Shown here piece after piece: positions 46,177 through 48,915 of a stretch of 62,981 bases of DNA. A model generated the notes under the pieces. It did not search any database and was not told where the DNA came from. It saw only the letters and a list, made by a program, of their open reading frames with translations. The stretch spans positions 1 to 62,981 of the forward strand of contig JBGCFZ010000282.1 of the NCBI GenBank assembly GCA_045110355.1, given 5' to 3'. This stretch comes from Lewinella sp. (lineage in GTDB: Bacteria > Bacteroidota > Bacteroidia > Chitinophagales > Saprospiraceae). The number at the start of each line of letters is the position of its first letter. The stretch's first letter is position 1. The translations under genes and the position numbers were made by a program.

Positions 46177-46263
46177 GGAGGGTGTAATGGAGCATTGTGT
46201 TAAACAAGCATTTAACAACCAAATCGCGATACGGCGACTTCTCTTTTGGAACTAAAATACGAA

Positions 46264-46750
46264 ATGAAAATAATATCATGGAATTGCCAGGGGGCTTTTA
46301 GGAAAAAAAACGACCTGGTGTTGCGACTTAACCCGGATTTAGTAATTGTCACTGAATGTGAAAATCCTCAAAGGCTTAAATTTGGTGAATTAACGCCGAC
46401 ACCGCTTAGCTACTACTGGTATGGAAGCAACCAAAACAAGGGGATTGCGATTCTGTCCTATTCTGACTATAAAGTAGAGGTTCTGGACGCGTTCAATCCG
46501 GCTTTCAGGTACGTAATTCCAATACGCTGCGAAAGTAAAATCAACAGCTTTTTACTTTTTGCTATATGGGCAATGGAGGATAAAGACAACAGGCGTAGAA
46601 GTTATGTTGGACAAATCTGGGAGGCTATAAATCATTACGCCCACTTACTTAACGGTGATACAGTCCTTGTTGGGGACTTCAACAGTAATTCAATATGGGA
46701 CCTCAAGTCCCGGGTCGGAAATCATTCCGATGTAGTTCACACCGCACTTG
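46264..46750 (+). pseudogene. 3'-truncated EEP (exonuclease/endonuclease/phosphatase) family gene
   Basis: MKIISWNC, PDLVIVTEC and VGDFN present; the frame then reads through antisense tRNA-Asn (VGLEPTTRTLTGCRSTIEL) and lacks the IDY and C-terminal SDH motifs. Confidence 0.78.
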
Positions 46751-46756
46751 CTCTTG

Positions 46757-46828
46757 AGGTTTCCGTGGGGCTCGAACCCACAACCCGCACCTTAACAGGG
46801 TGCCGCTCTACCATTGAGCTAGGAAACC
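46757..46828 (-). tRNA. tRNA-Asn (GUU), atypical G1-C72 and U73
   Basis: GGTTTCC TA GCTC AATGGTA GAGC G GCACC CTGTTAA GGTGC GGGTT GTGGG TTCGAGC CCCAC GGAAACC T. Confidence 0.9.
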
Positions 46829-46941
46829 AAATAAAAGAGCTGGGGATCAATGAGCACTACGGCTCTATCAGTCCCTCGCCCCCTTGACCCAAGGCATACC
46901 AACGGTTTAACGCAAGGCCATTGGGTCAATATTATATTTTG

Positions 46942-47013
46942 CGGTAATGACGGGATTCGAACCCGCAACTTGTGGATAGACAATCCACTGCTCTACCGTT
47001 GAACTACATCACC
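46942..47013 (-). tRNA. tRNA-Asp (GUC), atypical loop UUGUCUA
   Basis: GGTGATG TA GTTC AACGGTA GAGC A GTGGA TTGTCTA TCCAC AAGTT GCGGG TTCGAAT CCCGT CATTACC G. Confidence 0.9.
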
Positions 47014-47044
47014 TTGCGGCAGCCCGCTGGGCTGCCTTTTCATA

Positions 47045-47113
47045 GGTTGCAGGTTTCAGGTTGCACTGGGGCAAACTTGTAACTTGTACTTTGCAACCTG
47101 CAACCTGCAACCT
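47045..47113. repeat. Inverted heptamer array (AGGTTGC versus GCAACCT) in a tRNA spacer
   Basis: aggttgcaggtttcaggttgca ... tgcaacctgcaacctgcaacct; the same unit occurs near 28313-28337. Confidence 0.8.
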
Positions 47114-47188
47114 GGTTGGTGCGGTGGGGCTCGAACCCACGACTCGCGGTGTAAAAGACCGCTGCTCTGCCAACTGAGCTACGCACCA
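47113..47188 (-). tRNA. tRNA-Lys (UUU), CCA encoded, loop CUUUUAC
   Basis: TGGTGCG TA GCTC AGTTGGCA GAGC A GCGGT CTTTTAC ACCGC GAGTC GTGGG TTCGAGC CCCAC CGCACCA A CCA. Confidence 0.92.
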
Positions 47189-47190
47189 AT

Positions 47191-47335
47191 GATAGATTTA
47201 TAGTAGATAGATTGATAGCGCTGCCACGAGTATTAGCTCACGCCGTTTGTATCACGACGTTCTATCAGCTTCGAAGTCGAGCGGTGCGAGCTGCCCTATG
47301 CAGTAGCGCTATTAATCTACCAACTATCAATCTGT
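47191..47335. repeat. Family-2 long hairpin element between tRNA-Lys and tRNA-Ile
   Basis: tagattgatagcgctgc / gtagcgctattaatcta and agctcacgccgtttg / cgagcggtgcgagct arms. Confidence 0.8.
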
Positions 47336-47342
47336 TTTATCG

Positions 47343-47416
47343 TCCCGATGGGTGGACTTGAACCACCAACCTTCCGCTTATCAGACGGGTGCGCTGACCA
47401 ATTGCGCCACATCGGA
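47343..47416 (-). tRNA. tRNA-Ile (GAU), U1-G72 wobble
   Basis: TCCGATG TG GCGC AATTGGTCA GCGC A CCCGT CTGATAA GCGGA AGGTT GGTGG TTCAAGT CCACC CATCGGG A. Confidence 0.88.
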
Positions 47417-47420
47417 ATTA

Positions 47421-47572
47421 GATGGATAGATTGATAGGCGGCCTTCGGCCTTTATAGATTTATAGTGCTGTCACGGGCAGTAACTCACTGTGTATCTATC
47501 ACCGTCCTACTCGGCGACTAAGTAGCCGAGCGGAGTGAGTGACCAATTGCGGTAGCGCTATCAATCTATCAC
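47421..47572. repeat. Family-2 long hairpin element between tRNA-Ile and tRNA-CAU
   Basis: tagatttatagtgctgtc / ggtagcgctatcaatcta and actcact / agtgagt arms. Confidence 0.78.
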
Positions 47573-47585
47573 ATCTGTAAAACTG

Positions 47586-47658
47586 TCCCGACGAATAGGA
47601 TCGAACTATTACCAGCAGCTTATGAGACTACTATGCTAACCAATTACAATACGTCGGA
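47586..47658 (-). tRNA. tRNA with CAU anticodon (elongator Met or Ile2), divergent
   Basis: TCCGACG TA TTGT AATTGGTTA GCAT A GTAGT CTCATAA GCTGC TGGT AATAG TTCGATC CTATT CGTCGGG A; lacks the three G-C pairs of initiator tRNA. Confidence 0.8.
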
Positions 47659-47774
47659 GGGTATGCTAGTCGGCCATTAATGGGCGCTAACAAGGAGCAG
47701 TTCTCATACTGCTAAAGGAGGAACGAGGGGGGAGGATTTATCCGGGGCATAATTATTAAGCCCGTTTCGGAGGC

Positions 47775-47840
47775 TTAGCAATTAATACCCCGGCGAATAT
47801 CTCGCCGGTCGAACCGTTTATTTTTGTTGATCAAAATCAT
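47775..47840 (-). CDS. Putative leader peptide MILINKNKRFDRRDIRRGINC of the tRNA array
   Basis: ATG..TAA 66-nt ORF with A at -3, -12 and -13; lies between a promoter-like box and the first tRNA; stop codon is inside a long hairpin. Confidence 0.5.
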   Translation of the reverse strand: MILINKNKRFDRRDIRRGINC

Positions 47841-48045
47841 GGTTGGATTGCTTTGTCTGGGGAGATAATGCTGCGAGGCAAAGGATAAGTTGCAGCACGG
47901 GGAAATAATTTATCGCAGCAGGCAGCAGTGAAGCTAATTAGGGGGATGGTGGCAGCTGTACCCAATCCTAAAACTATGCTTGCTCGCCCAGAGCGAGCGC
48001 CCGCACTGGAGCGAACGGACAGTGGTGTAGCCATTCAATTATGCG

Positions 48046-48915
48046 CTACTTGTCCCGGATCAGAAACTCGGCGACCGCCTGCTCGCTAAACTCCCATAAG
48101 CGGCGGGCAAGCTGTTCATTCCGAGCGATGCTAGAGGGCTTTTGGAGGCACTGATTTTCATCGAAGTACCTGCCAGAAACGTCCTTTACCTCGGGGCTGG
48201 CGGCCAAGTATACGGAGGTATCTGCTCCTTTCATTGGGGTAATGGCAAAGGGCTTATACATTGACCATACGGCGCTGGTGAGGGTACCAGCCTTTTTGTT
48301 GGCAAGGCGGGTGCCAACGACGCCGGGGTGAAGACAATTGGTGGTCAGCTCTTCGCCGAAACGACGGTCAAGTTCCATCGTGAAAAGAACGTTGGCCAGT
48401 TTACTCTGGGCGTAGTACTTCGAACCATTATAGGCTTTAGGACCATGTTCGCCTTCGAAACTGCCAAAATCAAGTCCTCCTTTTTTGTGGAGTGCACTAC
48501 TTACGTTGATGACCCTGCTGCAAAGCCGGCAACAGCGGAGGGCAGGCATGAGGGCCATGGTGAGTAAAAAATGACCCAGGTGATTGACACCGAACTGTAG
48601 CTCGTAGCCATCTTTCGTAAGTTCGAGACTATCGGTGTAACAACCGGCATTATTGATCAGGACGTCAAGCTTAGGGTGTTCCGCTAAGAACTCATCGGAG
48701 GCAGCCCGGATGGAGGCGAAGCTGGCCAGATCAAGGGGGAGCGTATCAATATTCTGATTGCCCGTTTTCTCGGTTATTGCCTGAGCGGTGCGTTGGGCCT
48801 TTACCTCGTCTCGACAAGCTAGGACCAAATGCGCACCCCAGCCAGCCAGCCGCTCTGCGGTGGCTCGGCCAATGCCGTCGTTTGCTCCCGTAATGAGGAT
48901 CGTTTTGTCTTTCAT
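48046..48915 (-). CDS. SDR family oxidoreductase (retinol dehydrogenase-like)
   Basis: ITGANDGIG, LINNAG, VNHLGHFLLT, YAQSK, LHPGVVGT. Confidence 0.93.
   Translation of the reverse strand: MKDKTILITGANDGIGRATAERLAGWGAHLVLACRDEVKAQRTAQAITEKTGNQNIDTLPLDLASFASIRAASDEFLAEHPKLDVLINNAGCYTDSLELTKDGYELQFGVNHLGHFLLTMALMPALRCCRLCSRVINVSSALHKKGGLDFGSFEGEHGPKAYNGSKYYAQSKLANVLFTMELDRRFGEELTTNCLHPGVVGTRLANKKAGTLTSAVWSMYKPFAITPMKGADTSVYLAASPEVKDVSGRYFDENQCLQKPSSIARNEQLARRLWEFSEQAVAEFLIRDK

What the first reader, a model, noticed from the sequence alone, without database searches (positions are those of the whole stretch)
46757..47900. Candidate translation-sensing back-up tRNA operon: leader peptide upstream of five divergent tRNAs
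Seen, minus strand, in order: a promoter-like box (cttatcctttgcctcgc, about 47873-47889), a 21-codon ORF absent from the ORF track (47840-47775), hairpins, then tRNA-CAU, Ile-GAU, Lys-UUU, Asp-GUC and Asn-GUU. The ORF reads ATG ATT TTG ATC AAC AAA AAT AAA CGG TTC GAC CGG CGA GAT ATT CGC CGG GGT ATT AAT TGC TAA. Twelve of 21 codons, and 7 of the first 8 (counting the start ATG), match an anticodon in the array, and every array anticodon has a matching codon. Established: leader-peptide attenuation couples ribosome stalling to downstream transcription in amino-acid operons, and stress-induced tRNA arrays exist (e.g. the cyanobacterial trn operon). Inference: loss or cleavage of these tRNAs stalls the leader ribosome and switches on replacement tRNAs. 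I know of no described tRNA array controlled this way. Caveat: Bacteroidota N-termini are naturally rich in A/T codons (Ile, Asn, Lys).
Basis: partly seen in the sequence, partly recalled or inferred. Interest (0 to 1): 0.88.

Follow-up and report, generated by a model that had tools for sequence, protein, structure and literature searches.

The report
Codon-matched leader gates spare tRNA genes
A tiny conserved 21-codon gene, rich in the amino acids carried by the five spare tRNAs encoded just behind it, likely works as a ribosome test track that switches those tRNAs on when these codons are read slowly, a control I could not find described for tRNA genes.

Summary
The ORF (47840-47775) keeps 21 codons in 11 of 11 orthologous loci, window included. 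Three more spare-tRNA clusters in this genome have their own leaders: two match their arrays strongly, one weakly. The true pairing ranks 1 of 24. A composition-blind rule found leaders at 30 of 47 related arrays. Over 12 leader clusters with complete arrays, leader residues track array content (z 5.1; other frames null). All four clusters share an ECF-type promoter motif. The leader overlaps alternative helices, and two sister families end in true terminators with antiterminators.

Corrections: the promoter was misread. tRNA-CAU groups with Ile tRNAs, so the start-ATG match is doubtful. Matching is partly by amino acid, since Lys-CUU arrays have only AAA codons. This leader has no U-tract terminator, and there is no expression data.

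Best reading (about 0.7): ribosome-mediated attenuation of back-up tRNA operons. No paper on this was found in nine searches. This scan noted the same idea earlier on other DNA (phages, an Asgard archaeon, Ruminococcus, unchecked).

The parts
47867..47893 (-). ECF-type promoter motif GCAACTT-N16-CATT (predicted; start of transcription about 47860 by analogy with sister arrays where a tRNA begins 7-12 nt after the motif)
   Evidence: GCAACT and CATT invariant in 9 of 9 aligned orthologs. Within 330 nt upstream of 7 of 31 tRNA cluster heads in the genome, about 0.05 expected; 5 of the 7 divergent clusters. Also upstream of an ECF sigma gene. Not enriched genome-wide: 26 hits vs 24 for the reversed pattern.
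47775..47840 (-). 21-codon leader ORF; 11 of 20 non-start codons are Ile/Asn/Lys/Asp, 6 of them in codons 2-8
   Evidence: Same length, start and stop position in 11 of 11 orthologous loci, stop TAA or TAG.
47790..47808 (-). Helix A (segments 1:2, codons 11-17), predicted pause or anti-antiterminator hairpin, -13.6 kcal/mol
   Evidence: 92% of cells paired in 9 sequences, with one compensatory pair (CG in 5, GC in 4; possibly one event); slid controls 27-49%.
47742..47793 (-). Helix B (2:3), long hairpin spanning the stop codon and overlapping helix A by 4 nt; predicted read-through state, -27.1 kcal/mol
   Evidence: A B-type hairpin of -19.9 to -28.2 kcal/mol forms in 9 of 9 orthologs despite different sequences.
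47745..47763 (-). Helix C (3:4), weak alternative hairpin seen when segment 2 is blocked; no U-tract behind it
   Evidence: -6.6 kcal/mol here, -6.6 to -13.5 in orthologs.
47714..47741 (-). C-rich, G-poor tract, a candidate Rho loading site (inferred)
   Evidence: C exceeds G in the 40 nt after helix B in 10 of 10 loci examined; rho gene present.
47696..47713 (-). Small hairpin D (6 bp), formed in most ribosome positions; role unclear
   Evidence: Seen in the window, L056 and L162, and with a compensatory change in L161; absent from the other 7 of 11.
47585..47658 (-). tRNA-CAU with an Ile-type body (Ile2 or an anticodon-switched Met; unresolved)
47342..47416 (-). Divergent tRNA-Ile(GAU)
47113..47188 (-). 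Divergent tRNA-Lys(UUU) (CUU in most orthologous arrays)
46941..47013 (-). Divergent tRNA-Asp(GUC) with U at position 37
46756..46828 (-). Divergent tRNA-Asn(GUU)
47014..47584 (.). Spacers 47417-47584, 47189-47341 and 47014-47112 are copies of dispersed palindromic genomic repeats, not array-specific parts
   Evidence: Dozens of matches on other contigs; spacers differ among orthologs.

Best explanation
This is a spare tRNA operon behind a predicted ECF-sigma promoter, and it is likely gated by ribosome-mediated attenuation in a leader written with the amino acids that its own tRNAs carry. Shown: the anatomy, its conservation, the leader-array match, and that the tRNAs are spare in relatives. 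Inferred: (1) a stress ECF sigma starts transcription near 47860; (2) a ribosome starts at 47840; (3) if Ile/Asn/Lys/Asp codons are read fast, the ribosome reaches the stop, blocks helix B, and transcription ends at helix C plus the C-rich tract, probably with Rho because there is no U-tract; (4) if those codons are read slowly (tRNA cleaved, unmodified or uncharged, or the ribosome drugged), the ribosome lags at codons 2-11, helix B forms and RNA polymerase runs into the tRNA genes. The products would restore decoding of the same codons, closing a feedback loop. The genome spreads its back-up tRNA set over several such modules, each with its own matched leader.
For: Own genome: the 4x4 leader-by-array matrix ranks the true pairing 1 of 24. 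Matches are 11 of 20 (window), 17 of 24 (C280: Arg/Leu/Phe/Gln/Ala), 13 of 17 (C299: Pro/Ser/Phe/Trp) and 4 of 20 (C343). C343 has CAT-TTA-CTA in a row before His-GUG, Leu-UAG and Leu-UAA. Wider set: 30 of 47 arrays gave a leader by a composition-blind rule; over 12 leader clusters with complete arrays 0.628 vs 0.481 +/- 0.029, 0 of 100000 permutations, frames +1 and +2 z 0.8 and -0.1. Within families the leader changes with the array: Cys codons appear in the Pro/Ser/Phe/Trp-type leader where tRNA-Cys is present (L101, L100) and not where it is absent (L079); Gly replaces Phe in both leader and array in L115; the C343-type leader has a Ser/Trp/Cys-rich front before Trp/Ser/Cys/Ser tRNAs (L136). 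Two sister families end in strong hairpin-plus-U-rich terminators whose 5' arm is captured by the leader's 3' part when the ribosome sits at about codons 4-10, and released at the stop. This holds in 8 of 9 cases; L098 was mis-parsed. The commonest family shows a 2:3 versus 3:4 switch centred on the stop codon in many of 30 loci, read by eye. Precedent: tRNA cleavage stalls ribosomes at the hungry codon, and was linked to induction of the uORF-attenuated whiB7 (PMC10287673, passages).
Against: No RNA or ribosome data. The window-type leader has no canonical terminator, and helix C is only -6.6 kcal/mol; with helix A forced, the inner part of B still forms. In 4 complete arrays whose only Lys tRNA is CUU, all 8 Lys codons are AAA, which CUU cannot read; 7 of 10 window-family arrays are CUU-only. 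L162 has the window's exact leader but no Ile-GAU gene. The C343 leader is no better than chance overall (449 of 918). 5 of 12 clusters do not rank first for their own array: three with 12-16 amino acids and two wrong rule calls. 5 of the window's 20 codons are Arg, with no Arg tRNA in the array; 4 lie in helix A. In G008 the leader persists while the array has decayed. Fold results are equilibrium predictions with an assumed ribosome footprint.
Confidence: 0.7

Rival explanations
1. The leader is translated and codon-matched, but the ribosome-driven refolding controls processing or decay of the tRNA precursor rather than transcription termination.
For: The window family and the commonest family lack a U-tract behind the 3:4 hairpin; hairpin D forms in most states.
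Against: Two sister families under the same promoter motif have clear intrinsic terminators with antiterminators; the C-rich tract and a rho gene fit Rho-dependent termination.
Confidence: 0.12
2. It is a general translation-stress attenuator, like whiB7/wblC or topAI leaders, answering to antibiotics; the codon match is real but adds little specificity today.
For: Any stall before about codon 11 gives the same predicted fold. The leader has Lys-x-Lys and Arg-rich stretches of the kind where macrolides stall (recalled). AAA codons stand before Lys-CUU arrays. The cyanobacterial trn array is induced by translation antibiotics (PMC8421152, abstract and passages).
Against: A general sensor does not need different, array-specific leaders in one genome, nor residues gained and lost with individual tRNAs.
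Confidence: 0.13
3. The ORF is a by-product of an A-rich start region and a GC-rich hairpin; the array is controlled by the ECF promoter alone.
For: Ile, Asn and Lys codons are A/T-rich neighbours of one another; four Arg codons are explained by helix A.
Against: 0 of 918 N-termini reach the count; length and stop are kept in 11 of 11 loci, with TAA/TAG exchange; sister leaders at the same position use quite different codon sets; other frames show no match.
Confidence: 0.04

Closest known systems
Leader-peptide transcription attenuators of amino-acid operons (trpL, hisL; multivalent thrL and ilvGMEDA leader) and of pheST (recalled)
   Same: Short leader with control codons near its 5' end, overlapping 1:2 / 2:3 / 3:4 helices, stop codon inside the switch, output related to the sensed codons.
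   Different: The output is tRNA genes, not enzymes; four to sixteen amino acids are sensed per leader; the promoter is ECF-type; this family has no U-tract terminator.
Cyanobacterial trn operon / L-arrays (PMC8421152, PMC10272220; abstracts and passages read)
   Same: Spare tRNA arrays beside a housekeeping set, patchily distributed; L-arrays are reported in Bacteroidetes; induced under translational stress in Anabaena.
   Different: Anabaena's array is controlled by the repressor TrcR. 'leader', 'attenuat' and 'uORF' occur 0 times in both main texts. Here the set is split into small modules, each with a matched leader.
WblC/WhiB7 regulon (PMC7157823, passages)
   Same: A uORF attenuator senses stalled ribosomes; the regulon includes six tRNA genes and the ECF sigma gene sigR.
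   Different: There the uORF gates a transcription factor and is not matched to tRNA identity; here the leader sits directly on the tRNA operon.
T-box riboswitches, including ones reported upstream of tRNA genes in Firmicutes (recalled; not found)
   Same: tRNA status controls read-through.
   Different: A T-box binds the tRNA directly without a ribosome; no T-box match here.

Membership tests
Leader-peptide (ribosome-mediated) transcription attenuator | Short conserved ORF between promoter and regulated genes | tested here: met
   21 codons in 11 of 11 orthologous loci
Leader-peptide (ribosome-mediated) transcription attenuator | Control codons related to the downstream product | tested here: met
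   11 of 20; 0 of 918 N-termini; permutation z 5.1
Leader-peptide (ribosome-mediated) transcription attenuator | Mutually exclusive helices overlapping the ORF and placed so that ribosome position chooses between them | tested here: met
   Predicted A/B/C helices; one compensatory pair in A. Prediction only.
Leader-peptide (ribosome-mediated) transcription attenuator | Intrinsic terminator (hairpin plus U-tract) as the off state | tested here: not met
   None behind this leader; present behind sister leaders C299 and C343 and their orthologs
Leader-peptide (ribosome-mediated) transcription attenuator | Rho-dependent termination as an alternative off state | tested here: inconclusive
   C-rich tract in 10 of 10 loci, rho present; no 3' end data
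Leader-peptide (ribosome-mediated) transcription attenuator | Leader is translated and read-through depends on it | not testable with these tools
   No RNA holder listed
Stress-induced spare tRNA arrays (L-array / trn type) | tRNA genes supernumerary to a housekeeping set | tested here: met
   Housekeeping Lys-UUU, Asp-GUC and Asn-GUU found in G005 and G002 (22 regions of G005 and 18 of G002 fetched, not all tRNAs). Own assembly (86.9% complete) shows only housekeeping Asn. Housekeeping Ile-GAU not among those fetched.
Stress-induced spare tRNA arrays (L-array / trn type) | One long array, patchy distribution | tested here: inconclusive
   Here 5 genes; related arrays reach about 20; the array-type Ile tRNA matched 23 of 301 family genomes, a few being ordinary or contaminant tRNAs
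Stress-induced spare tRNA arrays (L-array / trn type) | Silent normally, induced by translational stress; TrcR control | not testable with these tools
   No expression data; TrcR not searched
T-box riboswitch | Stem I with specifier loop and T-box antiterminator | tested here: not met
   Rfam scan of 46300-48200 at E up to 5 gave only tRNAs and sub-threshold noise
SigH/SigR-type ECF regulon | Cognate sigma with the same motif in its own promoter | tested here: inconclusive
   ECF sigma on C399 carries the motif upstream; best NCBIfam hits SigM and SigH_actino are far below cut-off

The most novel reading that the evidence does not exclude
Saprospiraceae-type bacteria keep a modular back-up tRNA set in which each module is switched on by a ribosome failing to read a test gene written in that module's own codons: a self-indexing repair loop for the tRNA pool that counters anticodon nucleases, tRNA hypomodification or selective starvation, with an ECF stress sigma as the first gate. 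Unusual anticodon loops (U37 in Asp, C38 in most Ile-GAU) would make the spares independent of, or resistant to, what hit the housekeeping tRNAs.
Probability: 0.5. Interest if true: 0.9.

Novelty: new variant of a known kind. Interest (0 to 1): 0.8.

Why it matters
tRNA genes are thought to be set by promoters, growth-rate control or a repressor, not by a sensor of which codons are failing. If true, cells measure decoding of specific codon sets and supply exactly those tRNAs. That gives a function to 'cryptic' tRNA arrays and makes it testable in cultured type strains (Neolewinella persica and N. agarilytica carry this locus). It also offers natural codon-specific reporters of tRNA damage.

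Tried and rejected
Sigma-70 promoter scan: nothing useful at the leader. Counting the ECF motif genome-wide shows no enrichment (26 vs 24), so only its position is evidence; a looser scan for regulon genes gave mostly noise. Rfam: no non-tRNA family in the window region or six related loci. Expression: no RNA holder listed; the four runs laid were contigs holding only a relative's leader and unrelated tRNAs. Hairpin D as the regulated terminator: rejected, since it forms in most ribosome positions and is present in only 4 of 11 loci. Strict codon-anticodon matching as a rule: rejected for Lys-CUU; overall 482 of 524 amino-acid-matched codons are decodable under permissive wobble (21 of 30 rows, with 7 truncated arrays and 2 wrong leader calls dropped). 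CAU identity from leader content: inconclusive. A phylum-wide pattern search found 3 of 400 other genomes, not examined and not clearly tRNAs. C171 (Val), C205 (Tyr) and C302 (Ala, Trp) divergent tRNAs have no matched leader. PMC7776599 passages did not contain the promoter motif. No earlier scan notes on this genome or on look-alike DNA.

Full report
Observation. Eleven of 20 non-start codons are Ile, Asn, Lys or Asp. Among 918 crude N-termini (ORFs of at least 250 aa with A at -3, not an annotated gene set) none reaches 11 of 20, and one reaches 6 of codons 2-8. So the A/T-rich N-terminus caveat does not explain it. The unit lies downstream of a short-chain dehydrogenase gene, a context kept in 10 of 11 loci. 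Three of the four spacers are dispersed genomic repeats. Orthologous loci lie in named Neolewinella records (L076, L056).

Internal replicates. ARAGORN finds 52 tRNAs in the genome, with divergent ones in seven small clusters. Four clusters have a short ORF between a shared motif and the gated tRNAs. C299 has 13 of 17 codons Pro/Ser/Phe/Trp before those four tRNAs. C280 has 17 of 24 Arg/Leu/Phe/Gln/Ala before those five (Ala found at a relaxed threshold). C343 has CAT-TTA-CTA before His-GUG, Leu-UAG and Leu-UAA, but only 4 of 20 overall, which is no better than chance. The fourth is the window. The true pairing ranks 1 of 24 permutations (2.22 vs next 1.73). The Val, Tyr and Ala/Trp clusters have no matched leader.

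Promoter. It is invariant in 9 aligned orthologs. It stands before 7 of 31 tRNA cluster heads (about 0.05 expected), including 5 of the 7 divergent clusters and two housekeeping tRNAs that also have a TAnnTTTG box. It also precedes an ECF sigma gene, a DUF7873 gene, a PcfJ-like gene and a phosphoesterase-like gene. Genome-wide it is no commoner than its reverse (26 vs 24), so the claim rests on position and conservation. In other Saprospiraceae the motif often reads GGAACT...GGTT, like SigH/SigR promoters (recalled); the sigma's best hits are below cut-off.

Conservation of this leader. Eleven distinct loci, window included, keep ATG, 21 codons and a stop (TAA or TAG), while indels occur on both sides. 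Their arrays hold Lys, Asp and Asn, with or without Ile-GAU and CAU. Two arrays lacking Ile-GAU have leaders with 1 and 2 Ile, against 3-5 in those that have it. But L162 lacks Ile-GAU with a leader identical to the window's, and in G008 the array has decayed behind an intact leader. Among 47 same-genus genomes the promoter-plus-start pattern marked this locus in 8.

Co-variation test. An exact pattern for the array-type tRNA-Asp gave 47 loci among 185,579 species genomes, mostly Saprospiraceae. A rule blind to composition (longest ATG ORF of 15-60 codons starting 45-115 nt after G[CG]AACT[TA]) called a leader in 30; 17 gave none, several at contig ends. Two visibly wrong calls were kept. Leaders were clustered at 35% identity (15 clusters; 12 representatives with complete arrays). 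Own-array match was 0.628 against 0.481 +/- 0.029 (z 5.1, 0 of 100000). The same DNA in frames +1 and +2 gave z 0.8 and -0.1; on all 30 unclustered rows frame +1 reached z 2.6. Seven of 12 leaders rank first for their array. Asp is uninformative because it selected the loci, and clusters are not fully independent. In the genus-level set, 21 of 28 loci were called by a second rule: 0.445 vs 0.233 +/- 0.036, with ten rows from the window family and one wrong call. Single gains and losses are visible by eye: Cys codons with tRNA-Cys (L101, L100 vs L079), Gly for Phe (L115 vs L080), a Ser/Trp/Cys-rich front on the C343-type leader before Trp/Ser/Cys/Ser tRNAs (L136), and 10 of 14 codons Arg/Gln/Ala/Trp/Pro before those five tRNAs (L129).

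Limits of the match. Of 524 amino-acid-matched codons, 482 are decodable by an array anticodon under permissive wobble (21 of 30 rows). All 8 Lys codons before CUU-only arrays are AAA, so there the match is by amino acid; this is unexplained. In the window itself Lys-UUU fits. The CAU tRNA falls with Ile-GAU/UAU genes, not with the array Met genes (72 columns, rough support), so it is either Ile2 or a switched Met, and the start-codon match should not be counted.

Spare status. Two 100%-complete same-genus genomes that carry this array also have ordinary Lys-UUU, Asp-GUC and Asn-GUU genes (only part of their tRNAs fetched). The own assembly is 86.9% complete and lacks ordinary Lys, Asp and Ile-GAU, so it cannot show this itself.

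Switch. In the window, helix A (47808-47790, -13.6) competes with the base of helix B (47793-47742, -27.1); A-forced and free folds differ by 1.8 kcal/mol, and by 0-3.2 in 8 of 9 loci. With a modelled ribosome at codons 3-11, B forms; at codons 15-22, B is lost and a weak 3:4 hairpin C or other pairings form. A keeps 92% pairing with one compensatory pair. No U-tract follows C; a C-rich tract does in 10 of 10 loci, and rho is present. The commonest Saprospiraceae family shows the same layout around the stop codon, also without an adjacent U-tract. The C299 and C343 families have strong intrinsic terminators, and on truncated transcripts the leader's 3' part captures the terminator's 5' arm until the ribosome passes about codon 10-12 (8 of 9 cases); at full-length equilibrium the terminator always wins. 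The attenuation logic is therefore well supported for the system, while the exit step for this particular leader (Rho or processing) is inferred.

Comparison. It works like a multivalent leader-peptide attenuator (recalled textbook systems), but I do not file it as a classical intrinsic attenuator because the U-tract test failed here. The trn operon papers describe spare arrays induced by translational stress under TrcR, with no mention of leaders or attenuation in their main texts (PMC8421152, PMC10272220; passages and term counts; supplements not read). WblC is uORF-attenuated and activates six tRNA genes indirectly (PMC7157823, passages). tRNA cleavage stalls ribosomes at hungry codons (PMC10287673, passages). 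Nine full-text searches (listings and abstract starts) found no leader-peptide control of tRNA genes; the library misses most subscription papers. The scan's own notes report the same idea in phages, an Asgard archaeon, Ruminococcus and Burkholderia-type replicons. I had formed my reading before that call, did not test those notes, and do not count them as support.

Verdict. The feature is real, conserved and co-evolving with its targets. Regulated attenuation is likely (0.7) but untested. It is a new variant of a known kind, with interest 0.8.

Noticed in passing
window 46884-46929 (minus), Asp-Asn spacer: A hairpin with a conserved GCG(C/T)TAAACCGT core is kept before tRNA-Asn in 9 of 11 orthologous loci, even inside inserted repeats; it is not a dispersed repeat (two other chance-like hits in the genome) and has no Rfam match. 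It could be a tRNA relic or a processing or antitermination signal.
   Followed up: partly
L082:254-919 (G000 C399): ECF sigma gene with the same promoter motif upstream; an in-frame TTG 29 codons before the ATG and an overlapping 62-codon ORF recall the extended isoform of Streptomyces SigR (recalled). A small downstream ORF may be an anti-sigma (no Pfam hit).
   Followed up: partly
L079:271-343, L136, L129:776-850; G000 C343 just after the promoter: In several modules an initiator-like tRNA (CAU; anticodon CAA in L129; a decayed relic in C343) sits directly at the predicted transcription start, upstream of the leader, so it would be made without attenuation.
   Followed up: no
window 46941-47013 and related arrays: Array tRNA-Asp genes mostly have U37 (some C37), and most array Ile-GAU genes have C38 instead of A38; these would lose the usual position-37 modifications (inferred).
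   Followed up: no
L002 (G008): Leader and promoter are intact but the array has decayed to one Asp-derived pseudo-tRNA with anticodon GCC.
   Followed up: partly
G000 C171:29811-30990, C437 and C225 contig ends, C570:8783: The promoter motif also precedes DUF7873 (followed by a divergent Val-CAC and tRNA relics), a PcfJ-like gene and a calcineurin-like phosphoesterase, a possible translation or RNA-repair regulon.
   Followed up: partly
window 46246-46887 (+): A 213-codon endonuclease/exonuclease/phosphatase-like ORF (Pfam just under cut-off) runs convergently into, and overlaps, tRNA-Asn.
   Followed up: no
L047, L055: Arrays in Flavobacteriales and Chryseobacterium records (Gln, Lys, Phe, Asp, Asn, Ile-UAU) have short upstream ORFs rich in Lys but no ECF motif; not scored.
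   Followed up: no
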